From: a virus
Direction: 5' to 3' (one strand)
Virus record (IMG/VR): IMGVR_UViG_3300009768_000008
Coordinates: 905 to 64,904 of that record
Length of the DNA: 64,000 bases
Shown here piece after piece: positions 18,272-48,785 of the stretch (within the stretch, counting starts at the first letter, position 1; every line of letters starts with the position of its first letter). The position numbers were made by a program, and so were the translations under genes. The notes beneath the pieces were generated by a model that ran no database searches, was not told the DNA's origin, and saw nothing but the letters and a program-made list of their open reading frames with translations.

Positions 18272-18577
18272 TTAGTTATTTGTATACAGAGAGGGTGTAG
18301 GATGATCAGACCCCTGAGCTGTTAGTGAGCTTAAAGCTTGAACATTGTTACTATACAGAATACCACTATCTCTGGGCTGCCAGGGAGCAGTTGTAGGAGT
18401 ATTCCACGGATGATTAGGAGCAGCCGTACCTGGTATATTGATCGGCAGAAGAGGTTTGATACCCAGTGATTCTTCTTCTTTTAACAGCAGAATAGCTTCT
18501 TCCAGAGTAAGGGAGCTTTCTTTGATCAAACGAGAAAGTATAGCTACTTTCTGGGAATGTAATGTACTGTTTTCCAT
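18272..18577 (-). CDS. hypothetical protein (101 aa)
   Basis: ORF track; stop overlaps the portal start region. Confidence 0.35.
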   Translation of the reverse strand: MENSTLHSQKVAILSRLIKESSLTLEEAILLLKEEESLGIKPLLPINIPGTAAPNHPWNTPTTAPWQPRDSGILYSNNVQALSSLTAQGSDHPTPSLYTNN

Positions 18578-20775
18578 TATCTTAGGTTTTTAAAGGGTGT
18601 TCTGGGTGGTGTCATACTTTTGGAACCCCCTTCTGATGACCCAATATGTCTAAAAGGTCTCCAATTTAATTTACTGATTTTTTGGGAGTTCTCCAACTTT
18701 TGTTCCACTCGTTCTACACGTTTGGTGTATCCACGGTTGGCTTGTTGAACCTTGGCAAAGGCTATGAGTGCACAGAAAGATACCAGACGGTCCACGTTGA
18801 GTCCATCATAGTAAGCTTTCATCTCTTTGAGCAGCATTGGATCCGGAATACGTTCCACGCCGTAGGTTGTCCTTACAATGGTCCCGTCTTCCTTTGTTTC
18901 GTGGTCCAGTTCTTCCTTGGTAAACTCGATACCGTAGCTTAGGATGTTACCCTTGAATAGGGTCCCTACGTTTTTCCAACCATATTCCTGGAAGACGTTT
19001 CGGTTGGCTCCCAGGTCCTTCAGAAACAGAATCATGTCTTTTGGCACCAGGTACCGCTGTTTCTTTTTAGAGATCATGTACTGGATAAATAAGGCCACGT
19101 TATTCTCCACAACTGTCCAAGCATTATACCACTCGATCATCAACTCTAGGCGTTCATGAGTTTTGTTGATGTCATCAAAACGTCCACACCAGCTAGCCAC
19201 GATCTTATCCCGCTCTATGGTGTTCTCTACTTTACCATCACCATAGTCCTTAATGACTTCAACCGGGTTTTTATAGATGTAGATCGAGCATAGGGAATCT
19301 GAGGTTGTAGTCTTACCTTCTCCTACCGGGTCGACAGACGCGTAGTACATTCCAAAAGGAGGGTCTTTAACCGGTCGTTCGTAGATACAGATGACCCCTT
19401 CTTTGTTTTCCATCTTCTTTGGTACAGGAAACTCCATGATCGGAGTCTTCCTGGAGGGAGAGTCAATGATCTTCCCTTCAGCATTTCTGGAGAGCTCTAG
19501 GTATTCAACAGGGTACTCTTTATCAGCGATCCGTCGTTCTTGTTGTGCAACTAGGTGTGCAGGGAATACGCTTACTTTACGCGTATCAAACGCTTCCTCG
19601 ATGTTTCTGGGGTGCTGAGAAAGCTCTAGCTGGTAAGCTTGAGGGGTAAGATCTCGTTTGGCCTTCTCAAAGTACTTATCCAGGGCCTCTAAGGCTTTTT
19701 CTACCAGAGAGTTTCCAAATTCATCCATGTATGGAGGCATGGACCACTGTTCTGGTATAAAGAGCCCGGTTACTCTGATTGTACCATTCTTGTCTACAAG
19801 ATTGGACTCTACACCATAGAACCCGTTTTCTTCCGGATGCATAATGTATTCTTTCATGGGTTCACACTGATCCAGGTCACCCACGGAACCAGCAGCTATG
19901 AACTGACCGGTAATGATATGACCAGACTTCAGGGCCGGCTTGATATAACCATAGGTCAGGTCCATCTTGGGTGCGATACCGCCCTCTTCATGGAAGAAAT
20001 AAGTTACCGGTCCACCAACGCCATTTGTAGGATCCTTTTCAAAAGAGTAACCAGCAATGGTACTCTTAAGACCCTTATAGGTATCACGGCCATTTATACG
20101 TACTTTGATCTGCTGGTTCCAGGCAAATACCTTATCAGGTTCGGCCGGTCGGTACCAGGCAGTATGCTCGTTCAAGAAGTTTTTGTATTCATCCAGGAAC
20201 TTCCAGGAGCCTTTCTCGTTTATATAGTCTTTCAGTGAGGCACCGATCTTACAGATACTACCGGATTCAAACCAGTAAGTATTGATCAGTTTTGCCATAT
20301 GAAAGTAAGAAGAAGCTATCTGACGCTTCTTTAGGATGATAGCATGTTTGTAGTTCAGCTCAGCCAGATGTTCATACAAGGCCATATGATACTGGGCATC
20401 ACGAACCTTGGCAAAGTCAAACTTCTTTTCTTCCTTGTCATAGATAGGAAGAAAGTTGAGCCACATGTAGTAGTCCCTGGTTATATACCAGGTCTTTGAC
20501 TTGTTCTTTACAATGATGCCGTTTCTGCACTTATTCTTCTGGTCATCCCAGTAGGTCATGAAGTCTTTGCTCTTCAGTGGAGCATTGCAGTAGTAACCCT
20601 GGGTCTGAAACTTACGAGCCTCAGCATTAAAGATCCTGGTTACTTCATCAAACTCATACTTGCCTGGTTCTTTGAATAGAAAGAACAAGAAATCCCGGAA
20701 CTCCTCCCGGGTATTAAAAGTGGTTACGAACCAGTTACCGTTTTCGTAGGTAGGGACTTGTTTAAAGGGGGTCAT
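18577..20775 (-). CDS. terL: putative terminase large subunit (732 aa)
   Basis: Motif GMYYASVDPVGEGKTTTSDSLCSIYIY resembles the first catalytic-Asp strand of the terminase RNase-H-like nuclease domain. Size and position upstream of the portal also fit. Confidence 0.55.
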   Translation of the reverse strand: MTPFKQVPTYENGNWFVTTFNTREEFRDFLFFLFKEPGKYEFDEVTRIFNAEARKFQTQGYYCNAPLKSKDFMTYWDDQKNKCRNGIIVKNKSKTWYITRDYYMWLNFLPIYDKEEKKFDFAKVRDAQYHMALYEHLAELNYKHAIILKKRQIASSYFHMAKLINTYWFESGSICKIGASLKDYINEKGSWKFLDEYKNFLNEHTAWYRPAEPDKVFAWNQQIKVRINGRDTYKGLKSTIAGYSFEKDPTNGVGGPVTYFFHEEGGIAPKMDLTYGYIKPALKSGHIITGQFIAAGSVGDLDQCEPMKEYIMHPEENGFYGVESNLVDKNGTIRVTGLFIPEQWSMPPYMDEFGNSLVEKALEALDKYFEKAKRDLTPQAYQLELSQHPRNIEEAFDTRKVSVFPAHLVAQQERRIADKEYPVEYLELSRNAEGKIIDSPSRKTPIMEFPVPKKMENKEGVICIYERPVKDPPFGMYYASVDPVGEGKTTTSDSLCSIYIYKNPVEVIKDYGDGKVENTIERDKIVASWCGRFDDINKTHERLELMIEWYNAWTVVENNVALFIQYMISKKKQRYLVPKDMILFLKDLGANRNVFQEYGWKNVGTLFKGNILSYGIEFTKEELDHETKEDGTIVRTTYGVERIPDPMLLKEMKAYYDGLNVDRLVSFCALIAFAKVQQANRGYTKRVERVEQKLENSQKISKLNWRPFRHIGSSEGGSKSMTPPRTPFKNLR

Positions 20776-26117: not shown

Positions 26118-26245
26118 TAAACAAAACTCAGCAGTAGTAGTTGTCTTTAGAGTGGACTATTTCTCACTGAGGTAAGTAGATTACTAAGGGGTAATACTTA
26201 GTAAAATTAATCAGTGTCAGCTTATATACAACTGATTCTTATCAG

Positions 26246-26317
26246 TTTCCTCCCCTGGGTACGATCCAGGAACTGCAGGGCCAAAACCTGCCGTGATACC
26301 AGTTTCACCAAAAGGAA
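26246..26317 (-). tRNA. tRNA-Gln (anticodon UUG)
   Basis: Hand-folded cloverleaf. Acceptor UUCCUUU/GGAGGAA; D GUGA-AACUGGUA-UCAC; anticodon stem GCAGG/CCUGC with loop UUUUGGC; T CCUGG-AUCGUAC-CCAGG. Confidence 0.6.
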
Positions 26318-26323
26318 ATAGTG

Positions 26324-26395
26324 GGTGTAAGGACGGTACCGACCCGTCTTCCCCAGGTCCACAACCTGGTGCATCACCTTAATGCTTCAAACACC
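26324..26395 (-). tRNA. tRNA-His (anticodon GUG) with G-1:C73
   Basis: D GCAU/AUGC; anticodon CCAGG-UUGUGGA-CCUGG; T GACGG-GUCGGUA-CCGUC; extra 5' G pairs with C73; the acceptor stem has two U.U mismatches. Confidence 0.5.
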
Positions 26396-26400
26396 ATAAG

Positions 26401-26472
26401 AGCCTTCTACCGGAACCGACCCGGTAAGTCCTGTTTACAAGACAGGCAGTTTTCCAGTTAGCTTAAGAAGGC
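26401..26472 (-). tRNA. tRNA-Thr (anticodon UGU)
   Basis: acceptor GCCUUCU/AGAAGGC perfect; anticodon CCUGU-CUUGUAA-ACAGG; T ACCGG-GUCGGUU-CCGGU. Confidence 0.55.
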
Positions 26473-26477
26473 CTGTG

Positions 26478-26550
26478 TGGTACAGAGTGGTTACGATCCA
26501 CTTCCCCCGGTTTTTCAGACCGGTGCTTCTACCAAGTTAGCTTCTGCACC
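26478..26550 (-). tRNA. tRNA-Phe (anticodon GAA)
   Basis: acceptor GGUGCAG/CUGUACC; anticodon CCGGU-CUGAAAA-ACCGG; T AGUGG-AUCGUAA-CCACU. Confidence 0.6.
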
Positions 26551-26625
26551 AAGTAGGACTTTGTCAAAGCCGGCCACTCCTGCACAAAGAGGAGACCAGC
26601 TTGATCAGGTGTCCTGAAACCTTTG

Positions 26626-26698
26626 AGGTGGGTGGGAAACTCGAAGCCCCGTATGACTGTTTTGCGGACAGTTGCCTTACCATCTTGGCGAACCCACC
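26626..26698 (-). tRNA. tRNA-Cys (anticodon GCA)
   Basis: acceptor GGUGGGU/ACCCACC perfect; anticodon ACUGU-CCGCAAA-ACAGU (C33 unusual); T-loop UUCGAGU. Confidence 0.5.
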
Positions 26699-26704
26699 AT
26701 GTTG

Positions 26705-26776
26705 TCTAGCTGATCTGGATCGAACAGACGTAATCTTGCTCCCAAAGCAAGTGCCTTACCGCTAGGCTACAGCTAG
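26705..26776 (-). tRNA. tRNA-Pro (anticodon UGG)
   Basis: acceptor CUAGCUG/CAGCUAG; D GCCU-AGCGGUA-AGGC; anticodon CUUGC-UUUGGGA-GCAAG; T GUCUG-UUCGAUC-CAGAU. Confidence 0.65.
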
Positions 26777-26830
26777 AAAAAGAAAACCCCCAAACCGTTT
26801 TACCAGTCTGGGGGTTAGTATTTTGATTTT
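26774..26830. terminator. bidirectional terminator-like hairpin AACCCCC-(17 nt)-GGGGGTT flanked by U tracts on both strands
   Basis: read directly; abuts the 5' end of tRNA-Pro. Confidence 0.5.
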
Positions 26831-26944
26831 GTACTTCTTAACTCGTTGCTATGATCACTGTACATACACCAACACAACTACCCCCGCAGACCGGACAAGG
26901 TTGCGTAAACTGGGTAAACTGTGTATGGGTAGTAATCTTCTTCA

Positions 26945-26986
26945 TCTACAATACAAAGATACTACTTTTTGTAGAACTACCAAAAT
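26945..26986 (-). promoter_or_regulatory. Bacteroidetes-type sigma-A promoter (minus strand): -33 TTTG at 26983-26986 and -7 TATCTTTG at 26952-26959, 19-nt spacer containing GTTCTAC
   Basis: matches the TTTG / TAnnTTTG consensus with canonical spacing; the same extended motif recurs at six or more sites. Confidence 0.5.
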
Positions 26987-26993
26987 CTTTTTG

Positions 26994-27066
26994 CACGGGC
27001 CCAGGGAAACGATCCCTGTCCATCCGAGGTTTTGGAGACCTGGTGCATACCATTATGCTGGCCCAT
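26994..27066 (-). tRNA. tRNA-Trp (anticodon CCA), reduced D-loop
   Basis: acceptor AUGGGCC/GGCCCGU; anticodon CAGGU-CUCCAAA-ACCUC (4 bp); T CAGGG-AUCGUUU-CCCUG; D-loop only 4 nt. Confidence 0.45.
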
Positions 27067-27071
27067 GTATG

Positions 27072-27155
27072 TGGGAAGTGAGTGAGTCGAACACCCCGAG
27101 TCCGTAGACAGCTGGTTTACAATCAGCCCCGCTACCACTTACGGTATAACTTCCC
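27072..27155 (-). tRNA. tRNA-Tyr (anticodon GUA), long variable arm
   Basis: acceptor GGGAAGU/ACUUCCC perfect; anticodon GCUGA-UUGUAAA-CCAGC; variable hairpin; T GGGUG-UUCGACU-CACUC. Confidence 0.55.
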
Positions 27156-27235
27156 CTATTTCGCATATCCAGTCAGTAGTCTTTCCGTCAAAAGCTATCA
27201 ACCAGAGTATGCCGTTCATATTAACGATGTACATG

Positions 27236-27321
27236 CAGAGAGCAGAGTAGTCGAAACCCACCCCGGTTAAGGAGCCCACTGTTTAGCAAACAGGTCTGAC
27301 CACCTAGTCAGTTTACTCTCT
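27236..27321 (-). tRNA. tRNA-Ser (anticodon GCU), long variable arm
   Basis: acceptor AGAGAGU/GCUCUCU; 3-bp D-stem; anticodon CCUGU-UUGCUAA-ACAGU; T-loop UUCGACU. Confidence 0.5.
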
Positions 27322-27326
27322 AGATG

Positions 27327-27418
27327 CGGAAGGCAGAGGAACCGACCCCCATGCCCGTGTAAGGGGCAGCCTAGTTTTCAAGACTAGTCGCCACTCCAAT
27401 GTAGCTGCATTACCTTCC
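27327..27418 (-). tRNA. tRNA-Ser (anticodon UGA), long variable arm
   Basis: acceptor GGAAGGU/GCCUUCC; anticodon CUAGU-CUUGAAA-ACUAG; variable hairpin UGCCC-CUUACAC-GGGCA; atypical T-arm. Confidence 0.5.
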
Positions 27419-27424
27419 ATGTAG

Positions 27425-27510
27425 TACCGGTGGAGGGGGATGATCCCACACGATCCTTTCGGATCACAAGATTTTAAGTCTTGCGTGTCTGCCTATTTCA
27501 CCACACCGGC
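27425..27510 (-). tRNA. tRNA-Leu (anticodon UAA), long variable arm
   Basis: acceptor GCCGGUG/CACCGGU; anticodon CAAGA-CUUAAAA-UCUUG; variable hairpin GAUCC-GAAA-GGAUC. Confidence 0.55.
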
Positions 27511-27591
27511 AGTTGTCTGGACTCTCACCATAGCAGTCAGGGATTTCAGGTCCCCAGGTGTGCATTCAATTCGTCCCACCTTCTGACATCG

Positions 27592-27674
27592 TACCTCTGA
27601 CAGGCCTCGAACCTGCACCCGTTTCCGGACTAGATCCTAAGTCTAGCGTGTCTCCCAAGTTTCACCACAGAGGT
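27592..27674 (-). tRNA. tRNA-Leu (anticodon UAG), long variable arm
   Basis: acceptor ACCUCUG/CAGAGGU; anticodon CUAGA-CUUAGGA-UCUAG; T GCAGG-UUCGAGG-CCUGU. Confidence 0.55.
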
Positions 27675-27685
27675 ATAAAAACCAA

Positions 27686-27715
27686 AATCCCGACCAGGAA
27701 AACCTAATCGGGATT
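27686..27715. terminator. hairpin AATCCCGA-(14 nt)-TCGGGATT followed by a U tract (plus strand); also U-flanked on the minus strand
   Basis: read directly. Confidence 0.4.
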
Positions 27716-27941
27716 GGAAACTTTTTCAGTAACTACATACCTCACCCGATTGGTTTATGCAACCAATACAGACTGAGTGAGGATAGAGTAAACTGCTTCA
27801 TAAAAATTTGGTGGATGGTCACCCCACTTGTTTTAATCTAAACAAGAAATCATCGGTCGGTTACGTTAACTTCTCAGCTTGAACGCCTGTCGTGTGACCT
27901 TTCAGCTTTCACGCCTGTTAAGAGGCTTTACCGACCATCAC

Positions 27942-27990
27942 AATACAAATATACAACTCTTTTGGAGTTCTACAAAATATTTTTGTGGAG
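27942..27990 (-). promoter_or_regulatory. Bacteroidetes-type promoter (minus): -33 TTTG inside ATTTTGTAGAAC, 19-nt spacer, -7 TATATTTG. Also a near-palindrome TCTACAAAAtatTTTTGTGGAG.
   Basis: read on the minus strand: ctccacaaaaatatTTTGtagaactccaaaagagttgTATATTTGtattg. Confidence 0.55.
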
Positions 27991-28061
27991 ACTCTGGAAC
28001 TTGAATCCAGCTGATATCCTGCTTGCAAGGCAGGTGTCCACTCCTGGCAGACCCAGTCCCC
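27986..28061 (-). tRNA. tRNA-Ala (anticodon UGC)
   Basis: acceptor GGGGACU/AGUCUCC (G.U); anticodon CCUGC-CUUGCAA-GCAGG; T CUGGA-UUCAAGU-UCCAG; 7-nt variable region is unusual. Confidence 0.45.
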
Positions 28062-28067
28062 ATGCTG

Positions 28068-28139
28068 TACTCTCGGGTGGTAACGATCCACCTACCTTCT
28101 CCGTATCAGGGAGCTACTCTACCATTGAGCTACGAGAGT
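28068..28139 (-). tRNA. tRNA-Ile (anticodon GAU)
   Basis: acceptor ACUCUCG/CGAGAGU perfect; D GCUC-AAUGGUA-GAGU; loop CUGAUAC; T GGUGG-AUCGUUA-CCACC. Confidence 0.6.
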
Positions 28140-28144
28140 ATAAG

Positions 28145-28217
28145 TTGATCCGGGTGGGTACGATCCACCGACCTTGACGTTATGAGCGTCCTGCTACTAC
28201 CACTGAGCTACGGATCA
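28145..28217 (-). tRNA. tRNA-Met (anticodon CAU), copy 1
   Basis: acceptor UGAUCCG/CGGAUCA; D-arm GUAGCUCAGUGGUAG; loop CUCAUAA; T GGUGG-AUCGUAC-CCACC. Confidence 0.55.
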
Positions 28218-28222
28218 GTATG

Positions 28223-28296
28223 CGGTCCGTACCGGGATCAAACCGGTCATCTCTGGCGTGACAAGCCAGCGTCTTCATCGTGCAGACCCACGGACC
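28223..28296 (-). tRNA. tRNA-Asp (anticodon GUC)
   Basis: acceptor GGUCCGU/ACGGACC perfect; anticodon CUGGC-UUGUCAC-GCCAG perfect; T ACCGG-UUUGAUC-CCGGU. Confidence 0.6.
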
Positions 28297-28302
28297 AAAT
28301 AG

Positions 28303-28376
28303 TACCCCCACCGGAGATCGAATCCGGTTCTTCACCGTGAAAGGGTGGCGTCCTGTACCTTCTAGACGATAGGGGC
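28303..28376 (-). tRNA. tRNA-Glu (anticodon UUC)
   Basis: acceptor GCCCCUA/UGGGGGU; D CGUC/GACG; loop CUUUCAC; T CCGGA-UUCGAUC-UCCGG (canonical). Confidence 0.55.
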
Positions 28377-28456
28377 AAATTGGAGGCTTAGGACTCCATC
28401 ATCCTCCTTGAGATCCCGGCGTCCTTCTACTTTTTATAGTACGGATCTCTTTTACG

Positions 28457-28528
28457 AGCAGCATCTCGGGGTCGATCCGAGTTCTCCGGTTTGGAAGACC
28501 GGCACATCAGCCCTAATGCTTATGCTGC
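28457..28528 (-). tRNA. tRNA-Gly (anticodon UCC)
   Basis: acceptor GCAGCAU/AUGCUGC perfect; anticodon CCGGU-CUUCCAA-ACCGG perfect; T CUCGG-AUCGACC-CCGAG. Confidence 0.6.
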
Positions 28529-28639
28529 ATGAAAGAACAGAGCTCCAGGGGAATCTCACCCGTCTGTCCGGAACAGACCTCACTGCCTTTTACTATGTAC
28601 GGTATTTACTCGTACACAACAGCTACCTGAAGATGATCT

Positions 28640-28710
28640 TGGTTGCGGGGCCGGGATTTGAACCCGGGAAACACGGCTTATGAGACCGGTCGGCCACCTG
28701 GCTCCCCACA
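28640..28710 (-). tRNA. tRNA-Met/Ile2 (anticodon CAU), copy 2, CCA encoded, reduced D-arm
   Basis: T CCGGG-UUCAAAU-CCCGG; acceptor UGUGGGG/CCCCGCA plus ACCA; loop CUCAUAA; the 8-48 region is about 6 nt short. Confidence 0.45.
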
Positions 28711-28719
28711 ATAAAACTG

Positions 28720-28793
28720 CGGACTCTCCGGGGAACGATCCTGGAACCTTCACCTTAACAGGGTGCCGCTCTACCAGTTGAGCTAAGAGTCCG
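28720..28793 (-). tRNA. tRNA-Asn (anticodon GUU)
   Basis: acceptor GGACUCU/AGAGUCC perfect; D GCUC-AACUGGUA-GAGC; loop CUGUUAA; T-loop AUCGUUC. Confidence 0.55.
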
Positions 28794-28865
28794 TATACTT
28801 AGAAGGATTCCAACCTTCACTTTCAGTTTAGAAGACTGACGTGCTAAGCATTACACCATAAGTAC
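28794..28865 (-). tRNA. tRNA-Arg (anticodon UCU)
   Basis: acceptor GUACUUA/UAAGUAU; anticodon UCAGU-CUUCUAA-ACUGA perfect; T GAAGG-UUGGAAU-CCUUC. Confidence 0.55.
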
Positions 28866-28870
28866 ATATC

Positions 28871-28944
28871 TGGAAGACCCGGAGGTAGTCGAAACCCCAT
28901 CATCACGTTCGTAGCGTGATATCCTTCCATTGAACGACGGGTCC
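28871..28944 (-). tRNA. tRNA-Arg (anticodon ACG), CCA encoded
   Basis: acceptor GGACCCG/CGGGUCU; D GUUC-AAUGGAA-GGAU; anticodon UCACG-CUACGAA-CGUGA; T GGGGU-UUCGACU-ACCUC; 3' UCCA. Confidence 0.55.
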
Positions 28945-28996
28945 TTGTTAAGACCGTCTTCGGTAATATGTACTGTAGTGTGTCATGTCTTCTGTC

Positions 28997-29073
28997 TGGT
29001 AGCTCCTATCCGGGTCGAACGGATGCATTCTCGGTATGTAACACCGAAGCTCTACCACCTGAGCTAAGGAGCT
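28997..29073 (-). tRNA. tRNA-Val (anticodon UAC), CCA encoded
   Basis: acceptor AGCUCCU/AGGAGCU perfect; D GCUC-AGGUGGUA-GAGC; anticodon UCGGU-GUUACAU-ACCGA; T AUCCG-UUCGACC-CGGAU; 3' ACCA. Confidence 0.6.
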
Positions 29074-29136
29074 ATTTGAAGCTCATTATTGAGCTTGAAT
29101 GAGCTGAATATTGAGCTTAATCGGCTCATATATCTT

Positions 29137-29208
29137 GTTCCCCCGTCCGGTAACGATCCGGACCCCACGGATTAAAAGTCCGTTGCCTACACCTGTTTGC
29201 TACGAGGG
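29137..29208 (-). tRNA. tRNA-Lys (anticodon UUU)
   Basis: acceptor UCCCUCG/CGGGGGA (G.U); anticodon ACGGA-CUUUUAA-UCCGU perfect; T UCCGG-AUCGUUA-CCGGA; weak D-stem. Confidence 0.5.
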
Positions 29209-29244
29209 AAAATAAAAAACCCCGGTAGCTGGTGCTCCGGGGTT
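29208..29244 (-). terminator. intrinsic terminator (minus): AACCCCGG-(11 nt)-CCGGGGTT plus TTTTTTATTTT, abutting the 5' end of the tRNA array
   Basis: read directly. Confidence 0.6.
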
Positions 29245-29396: not shown

Positions 29397-29440
29397 TACA
29401 ATACAAATATACGTTAGTTCTACAACATGACCAAATTTAT
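29397..29440 (-). promoter_or_regulatory. Bacteroidetes-type promoter (minus): -33 TTTG, a 20-nt spacer containing GTAGAAC, -7 TATATTTG
   Basis: minus strand reads aaTTTGgtcatgttgtagaactaacgTATATTTGtattg. Confidence 0.5.
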
Positions 29441-30523: not shown

Positions 30524-30759
30524 AACTAAGCTGTTTTAAAAGTGAGGGGGCTTTTACACCCCCTTGGGCTAAGGCAGGTCTGTCAAGTTTCATGAGTTCT
30601 CTACAAATATAAGAAACCAGACTCCAGTTCTCCAAATATTTCTACAAGTTTCCTTGAGCTCATTTTTGAGCCCTAGAACATAGTAATAAGGAATACATGG
30701 TATGTTATAGAGCTCAGATTTGAGCTCAAGGAAAGTTGGACCCAGTTCTCCAAGATACC

Positions 30760-33726: not shown

Positions 33727-33960
33727 ATGAAAGTCTTCATCATCTTTCTTTTGTCTTGTATGCTCTTGGCATGCAAGGAACATAGTAAACGTCAAGTACT
33801 GTTTCGTGCCAAACAAGTCTGGTCAGATCACATGGGTACAAAAAGAGTGTCTCAGGATGTTTATATCGTGTGGTTTGACAGTGCATACCATGTAGGAGAT
33901 ACTGTGGATGCTGGTCCATGGAATACTTTCAGTTACATACTCTTGGAACGCGTCCGATAA
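33727..33960 (+). CDS. putative lipoprotein (77 aa; lipobox LLAC)
   Basis: MKVFIIFLLSCMLLAC signal plus Cys. Confidence 0.35.
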   Translation: MKVFIIFLLSCMLLACKEHSKRQVLFRAKQVWSDHMGTKRVSQDVYIVWFDSAYHVGDTVDAGPWNTFSYILLERVR

Positions 33961-34367: not shown

Positions 34368-34802
34368 ATGAAAAAGCTTTTGCTTATGGTGTCTATACTG
34401 TCATGTCTGGCGGTATCAGCCCAAACCACTTTAACAGTGGAGAGTTACAGGAACCTCTACTCTGTCTTTAATGAAGACGATAAAACCTGGTACAATGTGG
34501 AAGACAACTCGGACAATATCGAGATTGTATTATCCAGTGTTACAAACACACTTGCTGTACATGCAAAGAAAGAACTTCTCTTTCATTACTACGGTGAGTC
34601 CAAAAAGATCTCCAGTCCACTGGATGATGATGCCGGCTATGACGGCATAGAACGTGGCGTATACTGGTATGCAAACGGATACAAGTTCACCGGTGATCTT
34701 CGGGTCATTACGTACAGAAAAGACAAGGCCCACCGGATAGATATATTCTTCCGAAATGCCGCAGATATATACTCTGTATACAGTTACTGGTTCCGAATGT
34801 AA
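34368..34802 (+). CDS. secreted protein with signal peptide (144 aa)
   Basis: MKKLLLMVSILSCLAVSAQT. Confidence 0.45.
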   Translation: MKKLLLMVSILSCLAVSAQTTLTVESYRNLYSVFNEDDKTWYNVEDNSDNIEIVLSSVTNTLAVHAKKELLFHYYGESKKISSPLDDDAGYDGIERGVYWYANGYKFTGDLRVITYRKDKAHRIDIFFRNAADIYSVYSYWFRM

Positions 34803-34856: not shown

Positions 34857-35441
34857 ATGCGTAAACTTTCATTGTTCTTTGTACTGATTACAGTTACACT
34901 GACATCGTTCTCACAGAACGTCGCCTTCAACCCTTTCTATTCTTCTCAGAAATCCAACATGCTTGGAGCTGATGTATACAATGCATCCAACTCTGGTCTG
35001 ATCCTGGGAGCTGGTTTCTCTTTTGCCCTGCGTACCTATAACGGTACCAGTAAGATCTATGAAGAGAATATCCACATCCTGCAGGATTATCCCATGAGCA
35101 GCAAAGATGTGATCTCTGAGTTCTCTTACTACACCAAACAGGTACACGGTATCGTGGGTTACCAGTTCGGTACTGTATCCGTGGCTACTGAATGGGGTAT
35201 TGCCTGGAGACTGAAATACTGGGCATGTAACAGTCATCTGTCCGGTAATACAGTCATGCTCCCCAACTCCAATCCTTCGGGTGCATACTTCACCTATACC
35301 AAGCTTCCTGAAAAGTTCCTGATGGGTGCAACCGTGGCTATTCCTGTAGTTGGAACAACCAGAGTGTACCTGGGATACAATAACGTGGAACAGTTCAAAT
35401 TCGGAGTATCTCTGCCGATCACACCGATCTTCAGAATGTAA
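34857..35441 (+). CDS. secreted protein with signal peptide; possible outer-membrane beta-barrel (194 aa)
   Basis: MRKLSLFFVLITVTLTSFSQN signal; alternating amphipathic strands; C-terminal aromatic residue. Confidence 0.4.
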   Translation: MRKLSLFFVLITVTLTSFSQNVAFNPFYSSQKSNMLGADVYNASNSGLILGAGFSFALRTYNGTSKIYEENIHILQDYPMSSKDVISEFSYYTKQVHGIVGYQFGTVSVATEWGIAWRLKYWACNSHLSGNTVMLPNSNPSGAYFTYTKLPEKFLMGATVAIPVVGTTRVYLGYNNVEQFKFGVSLPITPIFRM

Positions 35442-38629: not shown

Positions 38630-38718
38630 GTTACCAGTCCAAACTTTTTTTGTTTACACTTTGTAGAACTAAGAAAAACGTCTACATTTGTTCTACATCT
38701 TTAAAGTTTACATGTTAC

Positions 38719-40200: not shown

Positions 40201-40422
40201 ATGCGTAAACTAATCTTAGAGATCCTGGTAGCACTGGTAACACTTTGTGTGACTGTTAATGCGGTGTACTACCTGGGAGATATCCTCTCCGGAAAAATCA
40301 ACTTCCTCATCATGTTTGTGGTACTGTTTGCTCTCGGAGTTTGTGTCATAGCATCAGTTTACGTTCTGATGAGAGTGGTTAAAACCTATTCTCAAACTGT
40401 AAAAAAACAAAGTAAGTCATGA
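40201..40422 (+). CDS. small membrane protein (73 aa) coupled to an SPFH gene; NfeD-like partner?
   Basis: two TM helices; 4-nt overlap with the downstream gene. Confidence 0.35.
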   Translation: MRKLILEILVALVTLCVTVNAVYYLGDILSGKINFLIMFVVLFALGVCVIASVYVLMRVVKTYSQTVKKQSKS

Positions 40423-41405
40423 TTTTCCTCATCACCCTCATCTTGTCACTCGGCCTTTTAGGTCTGATGTTCGGGATCTTCAATTTCAACAACTACGTTA
40501 AAGTAGTCAAAAAAGAAGTAAACTACGGTAGCAGAACCCAAACTATTGAAGAAGAACAAGTCAACGTTGCTCAGATCATTAAGACAGCAGCCGTTGTTCT
40601 CTTCTGTATCATCGCATCTGCTGTAAATCCTCTTTCCCTGCAGCGTATTGACGCCGGTAATGTGGGTCTTAAGATCGACAAAGTCGGTAACATGAAAGGT
40701 ATCCCTACCGCTATCCCGGTAAAGGGTTGGGTATTCTATAATGACTGGACTACAGACATCGTAGAGTATTCTATCCGCCAGGGTCACGTACAGTATGAAG
40801 CATTCGATGTAACTACCAAAGGTGGTTTCAACATCAAGGTAAACCCGAGCTTCAACTTTGCCCTGAAACCTGAGAAAGCCGCGGACGTCTATATCAACCT
40901 GCTGAAAGGTGGAAGCTTCTCCAGTCTTACTGATAACTGGATCAAGACAGCTACCAACATCGCCATGAATAATGCTACGAATAAGTATACCATTGACAGC
41001 ATCTTCAACAACCGGGAACACTATCAACAGGATATCATCAAAGAGCTCAACAAAGAAATGAGTGCTTACTTTACTGTGTCCCAGATCAATCCTGGTGTTG
41101 TCCCGCCTCCGGAACTGGCTAACGTAATCAAGCAGAAAACTGAAACTATTCAGAAAGCACAACAGGCTGAGCTTGACCGTATTACAGCTGAGAACGAAGC
41201 TCTTACAAAGATCGCTACGGCTCGTGGTGACTCAGCTCAGGCTGTGATCCAGGCTGCAGGTAGGGCCGAAGCTATCAAGCGTGAACAACAGACTCTTACA
41301 CCCTTATACATCGAGTATATCAAAACTCAGAAGTGGAACGGTGATGTACCCAGTACTGTGTTAGGTAACTCCAACGGGTTCATGATCAACCTCAATAACA
41401 AGTAA
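40419..41405 (+). CDS. SPFH/band-7 (stomatin/HflK-like) domain protein (328 aa)
   Basis: N-terminal TM, central alpha/beta region, C-terminal Ala/Glu-rich coiled coil (AQQAELDRITAENEA...AAGRAEAIKREQ). Confidence 0.45.
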   Translation: MIFLITLILSLGLLGLMFGIFNFNNYVKVVKKEVNYGSRTQTIEEEQVNVAQIIKTAAVVLFCIIASAVNPLSLQRIDAGNVGLKIDKVGNMKGIPTAIPVKGWVFYNDWTTDIVEYSIRQGHVQYEAFDVTTKGGFNIKVNPSFNFALKPEKAADVYINLLKGGSFSSLTDNWIKTATNIAMNNATNKYTIDSIFNNREHYQQDIIKELNKEMSAYFTVSQINPGVVPPPELANVIKQKTETIQKAQQAELDRITAENEALTKIATARGDSAQAVIQAAGRAEAIKREQQTLTPLYIEYIKTQKWNGDVPSTVLGNSNGFMINLNNK

Positions 41406-42020: not shown

Positions 42021-42221
42021 TCTGATACTGAGAGCTAGTAAGTAATCTATGGGGAAGTCCGTCGAACAGTTTTTCACTTAGTACCGTCCCCGTGTGATAA
42101 TAGGCGTAGCCGGTCTGGGAACCGTGCATAAACCCAGTAGATCCACTCGAAGTAGTGTGAAAGCTATCCTCAGTATAGACCTTGGCTTGGAACACTTGTG
42201 CCAGTAAACAGGTGTACTCAG

Positions 42222-42294
42222 GGAGTAGCTCAGATAGGAGAGCATCCGGGCGACCCCCGGAAGGTCGGTGGTGCAAGTCCACCCTTCCTAACTA
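42222..42294 (+). tRNA. tRNA-like gene with non-canonical anticodon loop GCGACCC (no U33); acceptor stem has 6 of 7 pairs
   Basis: D GCUC-AGAUAGGA-GAGC; anticodon stem UCCGG/CCGGA; T GGUGG-UGCAAGU-CCACC; acceptor CAGGGAG/CUUCCUA. Confidence 0.4.
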
Positions 42295-42308: not shown

Positions 42309-43109
42309 ATGAGTTACGCCATTAAACTTTTATTCTTTTTAGGTAGTTGTATTCTTGCATTTGTAGCCGGTAGGCTTACAAGCAGTCTGTCTTACCACTG
42401 GAGTCAAGTGGATGGGCCGAATCAGGCCGTTATAGTTTCACCCAATGACAGTACCACACAAGTCAACGGTTTGGTACAGGGTGTCTATCATTTTGAGTTA
42501 GCAGTTACCGACCCTCAAGGAGCTACAGGACGGGATACCATGATGGTTACCGTACTTCCTGGAGTTCTTCCTATCAAACTGGTTTACTTCAAAGCGTACC
42601 CGCTGGCTGATGTAAACATGATCAAGTGGAAAACATCTGAAGAGATAAACATAAAAGAGTTTATCCTGGAATCCTCTACAGACGGTGTTCATTTTTACGG
42701 TCTCTATCATACGTTTGCTATCGGAGCTACACCAACCTCTCCTTCTGAGTATGACTATGAACATAAGTTCCCAGGAAGAGAGCAGTATTACAGACTTAAG
42801 TCTATTGAGACATCTGGTACTTATACATACAGTGATGTTGTAAAAGTAACCAGATCTATTTCGACATCTATTTGGTCAAACAACCCTGTTACATCGACTC
42901 TTAATGTTACCATAAACGTAGATAATGCTACTACAGCTAACTTCTACATTTATGATGCTACCGGAAGAAGAATGGCATTCTATACGTACAATCTAAGTCC
43001 TGGTAAGAACAGTTTCAGTTATCATACTGGTCAGTATGCTTCTGGTCTGTATATCATTAAAGTTGACGTAGGAGGTATTATCTCAACCAAAAAATTCGTC
43101 AAACAATGA
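42309..43109 (+). CDS. secreted protein with a T9SS (Por) C-terminal sorting domain (267 aa from the Met at 42309)
   Basis: N-terminal signal/TM (MSYAIKLLFFLGSCILAFVAG). C-terminus FYIYDATGRRMAFYTYNLSPGKNSFSYHTGQYASGLYIIKVDVGGIISTKKFVKQ matches the type-A CTD consensus. The ORF-track start at 42198 was rejected as an N-terminal extension. Confidence 0.55.
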   Translation: MSYAIKLLFFLGSCILAFVAGRLTSSLSYHWSQVDGPNQAVIVSPNDSTTQVNGLVQGVYHFELAVTDPQGATGRDTMMVTVLPGVLPIKLVYFKAYPLADVNMIKWKTSEEINIKEFILESSTDGVHFYGLYHTFAIGATPTSPSEYDYEHKFPGREQYYRLKSIETSGTYTYSDVVKVTRSISTSIWSNNPVTSTLNVTINVDNATTANFYIYDATGRRMAFYTYNLSPGKNSFSYHTGQYASGLYIIKVDVGGIISTKKFVKQ

Positions 43110-43369
43110 ACCCTCATGCTTTAATAACCTTTATCGTTTGTATAGGAGGTTTTCTTTGGCTTGTTACATCCAGTACTATCGTTGTTCTATGCAAGCCACA
43201 GCTTCCCAAGCTTTGGTGGTATAAAAACTGGTTACTTATTGTACAGGTACTCTGTGCTTTTATACTACTTCTGATGGGACTTCAGAAAGCTTCTCAAGAT
43301 GTTGGATTCAAAGAAGACAAACCTCAATACGAACAAATCAATGAACCTTTATACAGATTAAAACAGTAA
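43106..43369 (+). CDS. membrane protein (87 aa)
   Basis: two TM helices. Confidence 0.4.
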   Translation: MNPHALITFIVCIGGFLWLVTSSTIVVLCKPQLPKLWWYKNWLLIVQVLCAFILLLMGLQKASQDVGFKEDKPQYEQINEPLYRLKQ

Positions 43370-43381
43370 AACGAAACACAC

Positions 43382-43780
43382 ATGAAAAAGCTCTTCTTTA
43401 TCCTTTGTCTGACAGTAGGATCTCTTATGGCAAACGCCCAACACGTTACTGTTGAACCCCACGTTGTAGTGGAACCGCATGTAACCCCTGTTGAACACGT
43501 TACTCCGGTCACAGAACATGCTGTACCGGTAGAACATTTCACGCCCAGTCATCCATATTCAGCATCCGAAGAATACCACCCGGTATATAATGGTGGTGTC
43601 TGGTTTGCCCTGATCCATAACCACCAGACCGGTAATACCGATACTGTAAAGGCATCCTCTAAGAATGAACTGGATAAGATGATCCAGGATAAAACGGTAG
43701 ATGAAGATGAAGGACGTACCGGAGCAATGCTCTTGGTACTGGTTATTCTTTTATTTGTTCTTGGTCTGTTCTTTTTATAA
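43382..43780 (+). CDS. secreted, membrane-anchored repeat protein (132 aa)
   Basis: signal peptide; VEPHV/VEHVTP repeats; C-terminal TM. Confidence 0.45.
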   Translation: MKKLFFILCLTVGSLMANAQHVTVEPHVVVEPHVTPVEHVTPVTEHAVPVEHFTPSHPYSASEEYHPVYNGGVWFALIHNHQTGNTDTVKASSKNELDKMIQDKTVDEDEGRTGAMLLVLVILLFVLGLFFL

Positions 43781-46195: not shown

Positions 46196-46531
46196 ATGAA
46201 AAAGATCATCTTTTCAATCTTAACAGCAGTAGTACTGCTGAGTGCATGTGAAACATCTGAAGGTATCAAAGCTGGTACCTTACAGAAAGTAAGTCATAAG
46301 ACCTTCCCCTGCTCCTACTATGTAGCGGAGTTTGCATTTGAAGGTGGCCGGGCATCTGGTTCTAACGACTCAAAAGCTTACGCGAACACCCAGGAAGTGG
46401 AAATCACTAAAGAAGCTTTTGACAGCCTCCAGAACCTGGTAGGAAGCCGTGTACGGTTCTCCTACAAAGACGAAGGTTTCAAGGCGTGTGCTCCGAATAA
46501 AAAACTGGAGACACTGGCTGTCATTAAATGA
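46196..46531 (+). CDS. lipoprotein (111 aa; lipobox LLSAC)
   Basis: MKKIIFSILTAVVLLSAC. Confidence 0.45.
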   Translation: MKKIIFSILTAVVLLSACETSEGIKAGTLQKVSHKTFPCSYYVAEFAFEGGRASGSNDSKAYANTQEVEITKEAFDSLQNLVGSRVRFSYKDEGFKACAPNKKLETLAVIK

Positions 46532-46884: not shown

Positions 46885-47005
46885 GGGCTTATTAGTTCAG
46901 TGGCAGAACACCGGGTCCGATGAGGCGGCTTTTATTAAGGTTATTGCAACCCCAAAAGAAAACCGAAACCCCGGGAGGTCACCAGTTCAAATCTGGTATA
47001 AGCCC
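46885..47005 (+). tRNA. tRNA-like gene with a roughly 50-nt insertion in the anticodon loop. Acceptor and D arm (GGGCUUAU-UA-GUUC..GAAC) and T arm plus acceptor (ACCAG-UUCAAAU-CUGGU-AUAAGCC-C) are intact.
   Basis: acceptor 7/7 pairs plus G-1:C73; anticodon-stem halves CCGGG ... CCCGG separated by 53 nt. Confidence 0.4.
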
Positions 47006-47279: not shown

Positions 47280-48363
47280 AAATATAGTACAGAGGAGGTA
47301 GGCTTGGAAGTAGCCATAAGGTAGAACCTTACTCTTGGGTTGAGGCTGGCTGAGATCAGATATACATCTAAGAGTCCTTTAAAGAGTTGCAAGTAGGACC
47401 CGTAACTGATTATGTGACGACTAAAAGTGGTAAAACTACAGGAGATATAGTCCTGATGAAAAGAAGTAAGCGTCAATAGGACTGAGTAGCTGGATTATTA
47501 TACACTCCTTAGAGCATTTGGTGTAACAACACACTCTGTACTTTTTTCTTAGCTCCGGGGATCACACCATCCGTCAATCTGGTTGTGTTATGTTTAAGCA
47601 AGCTTAAAAGAGCAGCTCCATTGGTCTGTTTACTGTCTGGTGAGCTCAGACTTTAAAAAGTAGAATGGGTCAACTGGAAAAGCTGCAGAAATATTTGTAG
47701 AACTCCTAAAAAAGTTCTATATTTGTTCTACACTGGGCCCGTCTGGTTTAGACAGCAGAGTGAGTGGTAACTACACATGTGGACAAAGTAAGAACGTCCT
47801 AAAATACTTACAAAACAATAAACGCTATGACTAAGTCTGAGCGTGTAGCAGAAGGTGAAGCTATCCTGGCTTCTATCTTCGTTGATGAGGCTGTAGCAGC
47901 CTGATCCTACGGGGGATCTATCCCTGGCAACAGAAAATAGAACTGAAGTCTTATATGAGCATACAGAACTAAACGGGACATATGCCGTAAAGTAATCCGT
48001 GTATAAGACGTAGAGTGGCTCCCTTAATAGTCTAGGCTGACCTAGAGCATTCTAACTGAAGCATGGTATACAGGGGGTGAAGCCGTGCAACCCAGCTATG
48101 GGTTACCAGAATGATACAGTTACAGATGAGCGTAGTATGTGAAAACATTCAAATAAGTATCTGTTATAAAAAGTATAGTGACTGAATGTTTGGTAGTAAT
48201 AGCATGTTTTCCTGGTTATGTCAAAACTAGGTGGTGGAGTAGGCGGTCTTGATTGGACGCCCCCAAACTACGGTGCAGATGAAGTGACGCAGTCTTTTAG
48301 ACTTGATCCAAAGTAATCAGTACTAAACATGTAATACGTTGTAGTTATTGACTTCTTTGTTGG

Positions 48364-48392
48364 ACACGAGTTCGATTCTCGTCGGGTCCACT
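48364..48392 (+). other. tRNA 3'-half-like element: T arm ACGAG-UUCGAUU-CUCGU plus acceptor CGGGUCC-A, with no 5' half
   Basis: read directly; canonical T-loop. Confidence 0.4.
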
Positions 48393-48785
48393 CTCTCAAA
48401 GCTAAGCAATCGTTAGACCCCCGGTGGTTTCTACTACTGGGGTTTTCTTTTTAAACAAGTTACTCAACATATTTTCTTAGAGATGTTCTCTTTGAAAATC
48501 TGGATACGTCTTTATCCAAGTCCCGTGGGGAAGGTCATTGAGACCATAGACTGTCACAAGAGGAAAAAACTGGAAGATTCTTACGGCAGTTAAGATATCC
48601 TGACTTCAATGTCGAAGTAACACTTGTCGTAGACGGGTTTAAAAAAGAGTAGTACAATTCTAGATATGTACGTTGATCCTGAGTATTTATACAATATACC
48701 CGCTGATACAGAAGTATCAGAGACGTAAACTCCTGTCTGACGACCAGTACGTTAAACTGGTCTTTTTACATCCTTAACCAAGCAT

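What the first reader, a model, noticed from the sequence alone, without database searches (positions are those of the whole stretch)
42309..43109. Phage-encoded cargo of the host type IX secretion system
The protein starts with a signal peptide and ends with a sequence matching the T9SS type-A C-terminal sorting domain (FYIYDATGRR...GKNSFSYHTGQYASGLYIIKVDVGGIISTKKFVKQ). T9SS exists only in Bacteroidetes. This fixes the host phylum. It also implies the phage places a protein on the host surface through the T9SS, which could mean superinfection exclusion, receptor masking, or a lysogenic-conversion-like function.
Basis: partly seen in the sequence, partly recalled or inferred. Interest (0 to 1): 0.65.

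Follow-up and report, generated by a model that had tools for sequence, protein, structure and literature searches.

The report
Phage gene for a T9SS-exported protein
A large phage of Bacteroidota carries a small accessory gene whose product has both signals needed for export through the host's type IX secretion system; this kind of gene has been reported in phages before and its function has never been tested.

Summary

The window is a phage. It has a major capsid protein, portal, TerL, about 20 tRNAs and a tmRNA. A Bacteroidota host is supported independently by TerL relatives (crAss-like phages), cellular homologues (77 of 80 Bacteroidota) and, weakly, a promoter motif.

- The passenger has no enzyme. 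It is a PKD domain lacking about 26-36 N-terminal positions, followed by an unannotated FN3-like β-sandwich. It aligns end to end with the C-terminal 240 aa of a 1688-aa cellular multi-PKD T9SS cargo.
- The gene lies in a variable island that the closest related phages lack.

Phage-encoded T9SS CTD proteins are already published (Bellas 2020, de Jonge 2019) and annotated in UniProt phage entries. This is a new member of a known, experimentally untested kind. Export is inferred. Surface function is speculation.

The parts
42309..43109 (+). Complete ORF, 266 aa plus stop. Architecture: signal peptide, truncated PKD, FN3-like β-sandwich, T9SS type-A CTD.
   Evidence: The identical protein occurs on about 9-10 metagenomic contigs, the longest 135,633 bp.
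42309..42386 (+). Sec-type signal-peptide-like leader, aa 1-26. K6, h-region L7-G21, candidate cleavage after G21 or S26.
   Evidence: Hydropathy and residue pattern. AF2 models a lone helix at 2-22. Heuristic only. Less canonical than the MKK...AQ leaders of neighbouring phage genes.
42390..42554 (+). Partial K319L-like PKD domain, aa 28-82. It lacks roughly the first 26-36 positions, where the first β-strands would lie.
   Evidence: PF22352 E 8.9e-14, but only profile positions 27-84 of 84. An HMM built from P0050's PKD repeats matches from position 37 of 94, and no remnant lies upstream in any frame. pLDDT is low for aa 18-55.
42561..42857 (+). FN3/Ig-like β-sandwich, aa 85-183, with motifs LPxxLxxF...W.T..E.N..F.xE...YYRLK..D..G.Y.YS. 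Not in Pfam or NCBIfam. A common N-terminal neighbour of the CTD in Bacteroidota.
42882..43106 (+). T9SS type-A C-terminal sorting domain, aa 192-266. Motif-B-like IWSNNP (188-193), motif D SGLY (245-248), motif E lysines K261, K262 and K265.
42219..42291 (+). Degenerate tRNA-like gene, Val(GAC) with anticodon loop GCGACCC (C33, C37). It ends 17 nt before the ATG, leaving no room for a separate promoter.
   Evidence: Rfam tRNA 42.8 bits when the region is scanned alone. ARAGORN calls it only at a relaxed threshold.
43106..43369 (+). Downstream 87-aa ORF with two hydrophobic helices. Its ATG overlaps the target's stop (ATGA), so the two are probably translationally coupled.
   Evidence: No PHROG hit, and only a sub-threshold Pfam hit.
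43382..43780 (+). Next ORF, 132 aa. Classical signal peptide, His/Pro/Val/Glu-rich repeats, C-terminal hydrophobic anchor. With the two genes before it, it forms a run of envelope-targeted products.
   Evidence: No family hit.
38660..38690 (+). Nearest upstream Bacteroidota-type promoter-like site on the + strand (TTTG-N19-TACATTTG).
   Evidence: No TAnnTTTG occurs on the + strand between here and the target's ATG.

Best explanation
The gene encodes a small exported protein that uses the host's secretion machinery in two steps. The N-terminal leader takes it through Sec into the periplasm. The C-terminal type-A sorting domain is then recognised by the host type IX secretion system and carried across the outer membrane. 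[quoted passage not shown]

The passenger is a partial PKD domain plus an FN3-like β-sandwich. It has no enzyme domain, so any activity would be binding, coating or spacing rather than catalysis.

The gene most likely descends from the 3' end of a cellular gene for a large multi-PKD T9SS-secreted adhesin-like protein. The breakpoint lay inside the last PKD repeat, and a new hydrophobic leader was added. It is an accessory gene in a variable island of a roughly 135-kb phage that is distantly crAss-like by its terminase and infects a T9SS-positive member of Bacteroidota, possibly Chitinophagales or Saprospirales.

Shown: the sequence and fold signals, the phage context, the truncation, and the accessory status. 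Inferred: actual export, CTD cleavage, final location, and any effect on the host surface.
For: 1. CTD. It passes two curated HMMs above their cutoffs, is full length and sits at the very C-terminus. The predicted fold superposes on solved type-A CTDs, including two caught in the T9SS translocon. Motif D (GxY) and the motif-E lysines within the last 13 residues, which are reported as required for secretion, are present.

2. Leader. The N-terminus has signal-peptide-like features.

3. Adjacent Ig-like domain. An Ig-like domain next to the CTD is typical of cargo. Reference 54 of the review links such domains to cargo stability.

4. Family invariants. Positions invariant across 67 family members (W107, T109, E112, Y148, L163, G219, G246) are all kept, even though identity to any cellular homologue is only about 20-32%. 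Base composition is within the phage's range, although GC3 is about 1.5 sd low. Together these argue for long residence with the ORF kept intact.

5. Descent. Residues 28-265 align end to end with residues 1447-1686 of P0050 (E 6e-30). P0050 is a 1688-aa protein with a β-helix, 9 PKD repeats, the FN3-like domain and a CTD.

6. Recurrence in phages. The huge phages LR756504.1 and LR756500.1 and 21 IMG/VR contigs encode homologues. Nearly all of these have classical signal peptides, and 4 of the 19 scanned pass TIGR04183.

7. Gene position. It lies in the + strand block with ParB-like, SPFH, ATPase and helicase genes, about 20 kb from the head module. It sits next to two other envelope-targeted ORFs.

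8. Host. TerL relatives are crAss-like phages of Bacteroides, Flavobacterium and Azobacteroides. 77 of the 80 best genomic loci for the FN3-like-plus-CTD module are Bacteroidota. The bipartite -33/-7 promoter motif occurs 6 times against 1.9 expected.
Against: - No experiment exists, and no signal-peptide predictor was run.
- The leader is atypical compared with the other exported proteins of this phage, which begin MKK and end in AQ.
- The PKD domain lacks its first strands and is modelled with low confidence. Part of the passenger may therefore be unfolded, and T9SS cargo is thought to fold before export.
- The closest related phages lack the gene at this position, so it is dispensable.
- All recovered copies are identical, so selection could not be measured.
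- The structure model used an alignment of CTD-bearing proteins. Its agreement with solved CTDs is therefore not fully independent of the HMM hits.
Confidence: 0.65

Rival explanations
1. Neutral remnant. The ORF is a leftover 3' fragment of a host adhesin gene picked up by illegitimate recombination next to a tRNA-like gene. It may or may not be exported and contributes nothing to the phage.
For: - The PKD domain is cut in mid-domain, with no trace of the missing part.
- There is no enzymatic or recognisable ligand-binding module.
- The gene is absent from the closest relatives, and the 4-kb stretch between the conserved SPFH and AAA-like genes is non-homologous between phages.
- The leader is non-canonical for this phage.
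Against: - The 266-codon ORF is intact despite divergence to about 32% identity from the nearest cellular homologue.
- Its composition is within the phage's range.
- All family-invariant residues and the CTD motifs are retained.
- A functional-looking leader has been added exactly at the breakpoint.
- Its stop codon overlaps the next gene's start.
- Similar signal-peptide-bearing genes recur in many large phages.
Confidence: 0.2
2. Virion or particle-associated Ig-like protein. The β-sandwich domains, including the CTD-like one, would decorate the capsid or tail, as Ig-like domains do on many phages. The hydrophobic N-terminus would not be a secretion signal.
For: - Fold searches also return phage tail proteins with FN3 domains, namely the T5 and T1 tail tips.
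- De Jonge et al. found T9SS-sorting-domain ORFs next to head genes in crAss-like phages.
Against: - The gene is about 20 kb from the structural module, on the opposite strand block.
- A 15-residue uncharged N-terminal stretch is not expected in a cytoplasmically assembled virion protein.
- No paralogous domain exists in any other ORF of the window, including the structural genes.
- The best structural matches of the last domain are true T9SS CTDs, not phage proteins.
Confidence: 0.05
3. Secretion-system decoy. This stripped-down cargo has little function of its own. It would compete for the T9SS translocon, the PorV shuttle or the PorU sortase. That would lower display of host T9SS-dependent adhesins that serve as phage receptors, giving superinfection exclusion or protecting progeny from adsorbing to debris.
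For: - The passenger is minimal, with a complete high-scoring CTD.
- In Flavobacterium, phage resistance maps to gliding-motility and T9SS genes, so T9SS-dependent surface structures matter for adsorption (paper titles and abstracts, e.g. PMC9804748).
- The gene lies in the non-structural + strand block alongside replication-type genes.
Against: - There is no direct evidence.
- Hosts express dozens to hundreds of CTD proteins, so competition by one more would need very high expression.
- The gene is not conserved among related phages.
Confidence: 0.1

Closest known systems
Cellular T9SS type-A cargo proteins of Bacteroidota (TIGR04183 / PF18962), e.g. the mirolase CTD 8qb1, the NucA and FspA CTDs 8glk/8glj, and the 1688-aa multi-PKD protein P0050
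   Same: - Signal peptide plus a C-terminal Ig-like sorting domain with motifs D and E.
- An Ig/FN3-like domain directly before the CTD.
- Residues 28-265 align end to end with the C-terminal 240 aa of P0050.
   Different: - Encoded by a phage.
- Only 266 aa, with no catalytic or large adhesive N-terminal region.
- The PKD domain is truncated at its N-terminus.
'Cryophage' T9SS-CTD genes (Bellas et al. 2020, PMC7468147)
   Same: - Phage-encoded proteins with type-A sorting domains.
- Located in variable or flexible genome islands.
- Proposed to hijack the host T9SS, with possible roles in competition or superinfection.
   Different: The Cryophage cargoes carry recognisable passengers: an endoglucanase, a GH39 and a PA14 domain. 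This one carries only a partial PKD and an FN3-like domain. Sequence relatedness to those genes was not tested.
T9SS sorting-domain ORFs in crAss-like and related gut phages (de Jonge et al. 2019, PMC6949934)
   Same: Phages of Bacteroidota related to crAssphage carry ORFs with T9SS sorting domains. This phage's TerL is about 25% identical to crAss-like TerL.
   Different: There the ORFs lie beside the head module and are linked with BACON repeats. Here the gene is far from the structural genes and has no BACON domain.
UniProt/BFVD entry A0A6J5M2J1 'Secretion system C-terminal sorting domain [uncultured Caudovirales phage]' and homologues in the huge phages LR756504.1 / LR756500.1
   Same: Similar size (260-369 aa) and the same layout: signal peptide, variable N-terminal part, FN3-like domain, CTD-like end.
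   Different: - Only 22-34% identity.
- Their N-terminal parts are unrelated.
- The two huge-phage proteins did not reach E 0.001 on PF18962. The LR756500.1 C-terminus carries the YPNP and terminal-lysine motifs, and the LR756504.1 C-terminus is more degenerate.

Membership tests
T9SS type-A cargo (TIGR04183 / PF18962) | C-terminal sorting domain that passes the curated HMM cutoffs and lies at the extreme C-terminus | tested here: met
   TIGR04183 40.5 bits (cutoff 23), residues 192-266, profile positions 4-72 of 72. PF18962 35.6 bits (cutoff 27).
T9SS type-A cargo (TIGR04183 / PF18962) | Seven-stranded Ig-like β-sandwich fold of the CTD | tested here: met
T9SS type-A cargo (TIGR04183 / PF18962) | Conserved motif D (GxY) and the motif-E lysines within the last 13 residues, needed for secretion | tested here: met
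   S245-G-L-Y248, and K261, K262 and K265 in TKKFVKQ. Motif roles are taken from review PMC10202324.
T9SS type-A cargo (TIGR04183 / PF18962) | [quoted passage not shown] | tested here: met
   K6, a 15-residue uncharged h-region, a polar c-region, and small residues at -3 and -1 (V19-A20-G21 or T24-S25-S26). AF2 models a lone helix at 2-22. Met only by heuristics, as no SignalP-type predictor was available.
T9SS type-A cargo (TIGR04183 / PF18962) | PorU cleavage site (T/E/D/N | G/A/S) at the N-terminal border of the CTD | tested here: inconclusive
   Candidate sites are T186|S187 and T195|S196. The motif is too short to be diagnostic.
T9SS type-A cargo (TIGR04183 / PF18962) | Secretion depends on T9SS components of the producing cell, followed by CTD removal and release or A-LPS attachment | not testable with these tools
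   The host is unknown. This needs expression in wild-type and T9SS-mutant Bacteroidota.
K319L-like PKD domain (PF22352) | Complete domain of about 84 positions, including its N-terminal strands | tested here: not met
   The match covers only profile positions 27-84. It starts at position 37 of 94 of a repeat HMM built from P0050, with nothing upstream in any frame. The protein contains a PKD fragment, not a whole PKD domain.
Phage genome (not a cellular locus) | Hallmark virion and packaging genes flank the gene on the same molecule | tested here: met
   Major head protein 12475-14094, portal 15513-18266, TerL 18577-20775. Helicase and ATPases at 49-62 kb. The same roughly 135.6-kb contig recurs across data sources.
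crAss-like phages (Crassvirales) | Terminase, portal and capsid proteins that cluster with Crassvirales | tested here: inconclusive
   TerL is about 25% identical over 85-91% of its length to cr1_1, cr55_1, Azobacteroides phage ProJPt-Bp1 and Flavobacterium phage FpV4. No phylogeny was made, and there is no DNA-level match to any known phage.

The most novel reading that the evidence does not exclude
The phage makes a cargo stripped down to little more than the export signals in order to occupy or redirect the host T9SS (translocon, PorV shuttle or PorU sortase). This would remodel the set of T9SS-dependent surface proteins during infection. It would be a secretion-system-level form of superinfection exclusion or receptor down-regulation not described for any phage.
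Probability: 0.1. Interest if true: 0.7.

Novelty: new member of a known kind. Interest (0 to 1): 0.3.

Why it matters
The CTD narrows the host to a T9SS-positive lineage of Bacteroidota, which is useful for assigning a host to an uncultured 135-kb phage.

It adds a clean, minimal example to a small and purely bioinformatic body of reports that phages of Bacteroidota send their own proteins through the host's type IX secretion system. Nobody has yet shown such export or what it does for the phage. A 266-aa protein with so small a passenger would be an easy construct for the first test.

The domain-truncation evidence also documents how such genes arise. The tail end of a host adhesin gene is captured and fitted with a new leader.

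By itself the finding is not surprising to a specialist.

Tried and rejected
- A megablast of the structural module against 50,697 phage records found no match.
- PHROGs has no family for the target or for its small neighbours.
- A search for close relatives of the SPFH neighbour in IMG/VR found none. Relatives were found later through the protein database.
- The exhaustive representative search with the whole protein was swamped by giant multi-PKD proteins. Only P0050 was informative.
- I tested whether the IMG/VR homologues with a short tail of about 35 aa carry another T9SS signal, type B or type C. One weak type-C hit (E 0.0011) appeared among the 20 proteins scanned. Nothing appeared when ten were scanned individually. 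This is left open.
- The lipoprotein reading of the leader (L11-G12-S13-C14) was rejected. The Cys is at position 14, only 7 hydrophobic residues precede it, and the hydrophobic run continues after it.
- Recent horizontal transfer judged by composition is not supported. GC is 0.40 and codon-usage cosine 0.90, both within the range of other genes.
- No paralogue or second CTD protein exists in the window.
- No remnant of the missing PKD strands lies upstream.
- No Bacteroidota-type or convincing σ70 promoter lies between the tRNA-like gene and the ATG.
- One literature query was badly framed and returned nothing relevant.
- The afdb50 fold library was unavailable.

Full report
**Observation**

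It has an ATG at 42309 and a TGA at 43107-43109, and it encodes 266 aa. A longer GTG-initiated reading from 42198 runs through a tRNA-like gene at 42219-42291 (Rfam tRNA 42.8 bits when the region is scanned alone). The next Met lies inside a domain. The ATG at 42309 is therefore the start.

The C-terminal 75 residues match the T9SS type-A sorting domain above both curated thresholds:
- TIGR04183: E 2e-10, 40.5 bits against a cutoff of 23, profile positions 4-72 of 72.
- PF18962: E 1.1e-08, 35.6 bits against a cutoff of 27.

The N-terminus has K6, then a 15-residue uncharged hydrophobic run (L7-G21), then a polar stretch with small residues suited to signal peptidase I. AlphaFold2 models it as a lone helix. 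No dedicated predictor was available, so the signal peptide is confirmed only heuristically. It is less canonical than the MKK...AQ leaders of other exported proteins of this phage.

**Anatomy of the protein**

Four parts follow one another.

1. The leader, aa 1-26.

2. A K319L-like PKD match, aa 25-82 (PF22352, E 8.9e-14). It covers only profile positions 27-84 of 84. I built an HMM from the PKD repeats of a cellular homologue. The match starts at position 37 of 94, exactly at the SYxW motif. No trace of the missing segment exists in any frame upstream. The PKD domain is therefore a fragment lacking its first strands. It is modelled with low confidence (pLDDT below 50 for aa 18-42 and 47-55), although the alignment used had almost no PKD coverage.

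3. A confidently modelled β-sandwich, aa 85-183 (block-mean pLDDT mostly 83-97). Pfam and NCBIfam have no model for it. It resembles FN3 domains. Its motifs are LPxxLxxF, W.T..E.N..F.xE and YYRLK..D..G.Y.YS. In the protein database it sits directly in front of a CTD in hundreds of proteins. Among those that carry a source name, most are called 'T9SS type A sorting domain-containing protein', from Cyclobacteriaceae, Cytophagales, Saprospiraceae and Flavobacteriales.

The GxY of motif D (S245-G-L-Y248) and the lysines of motif E (K261, K262, K265) are present. A review reports these among the residues required for secretion and for contacts with PorM and PorV (PMC10202324). No catalytic domain is present, and PHROGs has no family for the protein.

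**Origin**

The exhaustive HMMER search was dominated by giant proteins with many PKD repeats. One of them, P0050, aligns end to end with residues 28-265 of the phage protein through its last 240 residues (32% identity, E 6e-30). P0050 is 1688 aa long and has a signal peptide, a β-helix, 9 PKD repeats, the FN3-like domain and a CTD.

The simplest reading has three steps. The phage gene descends from the 3' end of such a cellular gene. The breakpoint lay inside the last PKD repeat. A new hydrophobic leader was joined at the breakpoint.

The capture is not recent. Identity to cellular homologues is 20-32%. GC content (0.40) and codon usage (cosine 0.90 to the phage's large genes) are ordinary for this genome. 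Over that divergence the ORF has stayed open. It has kept every position that is invariant in a 67-member family alignment. This is indirect evidence of constraint. Direct measurement was impossible because all recovered copies are identical.

**Context**

The window is a phage. On the - strand it has a major head protein (12475-14094), a portal (15513-18266) and a large terminase (18577-20775). On the + strand it has a helicase and ATPases. It also carries an array of about 20 tRNAs and a tmRNA. The same protein lies on contigs of 135,633 and 135,619 bp from several data sources, which suggests a genome of about 135 kb.

The target lies in the + strand block, about 20 kb from the head genes. 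It follows ParB-like and SPFH/Band-7 genes.
- A degenerate tRNA-like gene ends 17 nt before its ATG.
- Its stop overlaps the ATG of an 87-aa two-helix membrane ORF.
- After that comes a 132-aa ORF with a signal peptide and a C-terminal anchor.

No promoter-like site lies between the tRNA-like gene and the ATG. The nearest Bacteroidota-type -33/-7 site on this strand is at 38660-38690.

I found related phages through the SPFH protein, at 75%, 62% and 57% identity on contigs of 123, 42 and 111 kb. They conserve the SPFH gene. The closest one also conserves the AAA-like gene that lies 4 kb downstream in the window. The stretch in between shares no homology and holds no CTD gene. The gene is thus an accessory gene in a variable island.

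The closest relative carries, just upstream of its SPFH gene, a 152-aa lipoprotein made of rearranged pieces of the same FN3-like domain, without a CTD.

**Host**

Three lines independent of the CTD point to Bacteroidota.
- The terminase's only relatives among 50,697 phage records (about 25% identity over 85-91% of its length) are crAss-like phages and phages of Flavobacterium, Bacteroides and Azobacteroides.
- 77 of the 80 best genomic loci encoding the FN3-like-plus-CTD module are Bacteroidota, mostly Chitinophagaceae and Saprospiraceae. The three exceptions are metagenome bins with doubtful labels.
- The bipartite motif TTTG-N17-23-TAnnTTTG occurs 6 times against 1.9 expected, with 1 of 100 shuffles reaching 6. 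Several copies share a longer consensus, one of them directly in front of the tmRNA. This line is weak, because the -7 element alone is not enriched.

Some Bacteroidota, such as gut Bacteroides, lack T9SS (my own knowledge, not tested here). A working CTD would therefore narrow the host further.

**Mechanism and rivals**

The best-supported reading is Sec export followed by T9SS transport, then CTD removal, then release or surface attachment of a small non-enzymatic β-sandwich passenger (confidence 0.65).

The main rival is that the gene is a neutral remnant (0.2). The truncation, the absence from relatives and the odd leader favour it. The intact, constrained-looking ORF, the leader placed exactly at the breakpoint, the translational coupling to the next gene and the recurrence of similar genes in other large phages count against it.

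A virion-decoration role is unlikely (0.05). The gene is far from the structural genes, it has a hydrophobic leader, and it has no paralogue among them.

The most novel reading not excluded is a decoy cargo that competes for the T9SS and lowers display of T9SS-dependent receptors (0.1). Phage resistance in Flavobacterium does map to gliding and T9SS genes, but nothing here tests the idea.

**Comparison with what is known**

Phage-encoded T9SS cargo is already described.
- Bellas et al. 2020 reported three variable genes with type-A sorting domains in 'Cryophage'. They proposed hijacking of the host system and possible roles in competition or superinfection (PMC7468147).
- De Jonge et al. 2019 noted T9SS sorting-domain ORFs in crAss-like gut phages (PMC6949934).
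- UniProt phage entries are annotated 'Secretion system C-terminal sorting domain'. One of these is the best BFVD fold match of the model (A0A6J5M2J1, E 1.3e-12).

Homologues with a signal peptide, a variable N-terminal part and the FN3-like domain, ending in a CTD or a short tail, occur in the huge phages LR756504.1 (636 kb) and LR756500.1 (462 kb) and in 21 IMG/VR contigs. Only 4 of the 19 that were scanned pass TIGR04183.

I found no experimental test of export for any phage-encoded CTD protein in the searchable literature.

**Verdict**

This is a real feature, correctly read by the first stage in its essentials, but it is a new member of a known kind. What this analysis adds:
- structural confirmation of the CTD;
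- the truncated-PKD origin from a cellular adhesin-like cargo;
- the unannotated FN3-like partner domain;
- the accessory status of the gene;
- independent support for the host phylum.

Interest is 0.3.

Noticed in passing
window 42219-42291 (+): tRNA-like gene 17 nt upstream of the target. It has a cloverleaf with anticodon GAC (Val), but its anticodon loop is GCGACCC (C33 instead of U33, and C37). It was missed by ARAGORN at default settings and by the whole-window Rfam scan. Scanned alone it scores 42.8 bits. It could be a decayed tRNA or a recombination scar beside the captured gene.
   Followed up: partly
window 47735-48393 (+): Phage-encoded tmRNA, Rfam RF00023 at 60.7 bits. It is unusually long (659 nt), and ARAGORN did not call it. 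A Bacteroidota-type promoter-like site lies directly upstream at 47694-47725. Related phages also carry tmRNAs near their SPFH gene: L106 8625-9020, and a permuted tmRNA at L107 2053-2256.
   Followed up: partly
window 46886-47005 (+); L105 8319-8425: tRNA matches that are 120 nt and 107 nt long. Each is a tRNA with an insertion of about 35-50 nt, possibly an intron. They occur in this phage and in its closest relative.
   Followed up: no
window 26245-29209 (-): Dense array of about 20 tRNA genes. ARAGORN finds 17, and Rfam adds 26626-26698, 28303-28376 and 28643-28710. Promoter-like sites are interspersed at 26954-26984, 27946-27976 and 29404-29435.
   Followed up: no
window 27944-27976 (-), 30604-30636 (-), 38660-38692 (+), 47694-47725 (+): Shared extended promoter-like consensus, TTTGTAGAACT-N(about 14)-TAnnTTTG. 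It combines the Bacteroidota -33 and -7 elements. The extended motif occurs 3 times against 0.47 expected, and the plain bipartite motif 6 times against 1.9.
   Followed up: partly
L105 5082-5540 (+), the closest related phage contig (123 kb): 152-aa predicted lipoprotein (lipobox LAAC) containing the two halves of the FN3-like domain in swapped order (YRLKVVDVD...YS first, then LPIKLEYF...WKTS..EN..FIIE). It has no CTD. The same domain is sent to the envelope by a different route in a sister phage.
   Followed up: partly
L007, L009-L011, L013-L015, L017-L021, L023, L024 (IMG/VR contigs): Many viral homologues end about 35-40 aa after the FN3-like domain, with a tail such as ...YNILGxxVxxxxxGxxIxxxxDGxxxKxx. 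The tail looks like the last strands of a CTD. The ten scanned individually match no T9SS signal model. It may be an unrecognised short sorting signal or a degenerate one.
   Followed up: partly
window 40419-41405 (+): SPFH/Band-7 (HflC-like) membrane protein. It has more than 1500 homologues at E below 1e-20, several of them on contigs over 100 kb (three looked up look phage-like). It matches PHROG 200, annotated 'lipoprotein'. It appears to be a conserved marker of this group of large phages.
   Followed up: partly
window 43382-43780 (+): 132-aa ORF with a classical signal peptide, then imperfect repeats rich in His, Pro, Val and Glu (HVTVEPHVVVEPHVTPVEHVTPVTEHAVPVEH), then a C-terminal hydrophobic anchor. 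It has no family hit.
   Followed up: no
L107 7403-12942 / L108 4230-9769 (related phage of about 111 kb): Downstream of the SPFH gene this relative carries a cluster of COOH-NH2 ligase, peptidase C26/GATase, GATase_6 and amidoligase_2 genes, in place of the island that holds the CTD gene here.
   Followed up: no
window 1497-7079 (-): 1860-aa ORF with no hit in PHROGs or Pfam. It has unusually low GC3 (0.26, against a mean of 0.47 for the other large genes).
   Followed up: no
window 33727-33960, 34368-34802, 34857-35441, 46196-46531 (+): Four more small ORFs with classical Bacteroidota-style signal peptides or lipoboxes (MKK...AQ, LLAC, LSAC). They have no Pfam hits. This phage encodes several envelope-targeted proteins.
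   Followed up: partly
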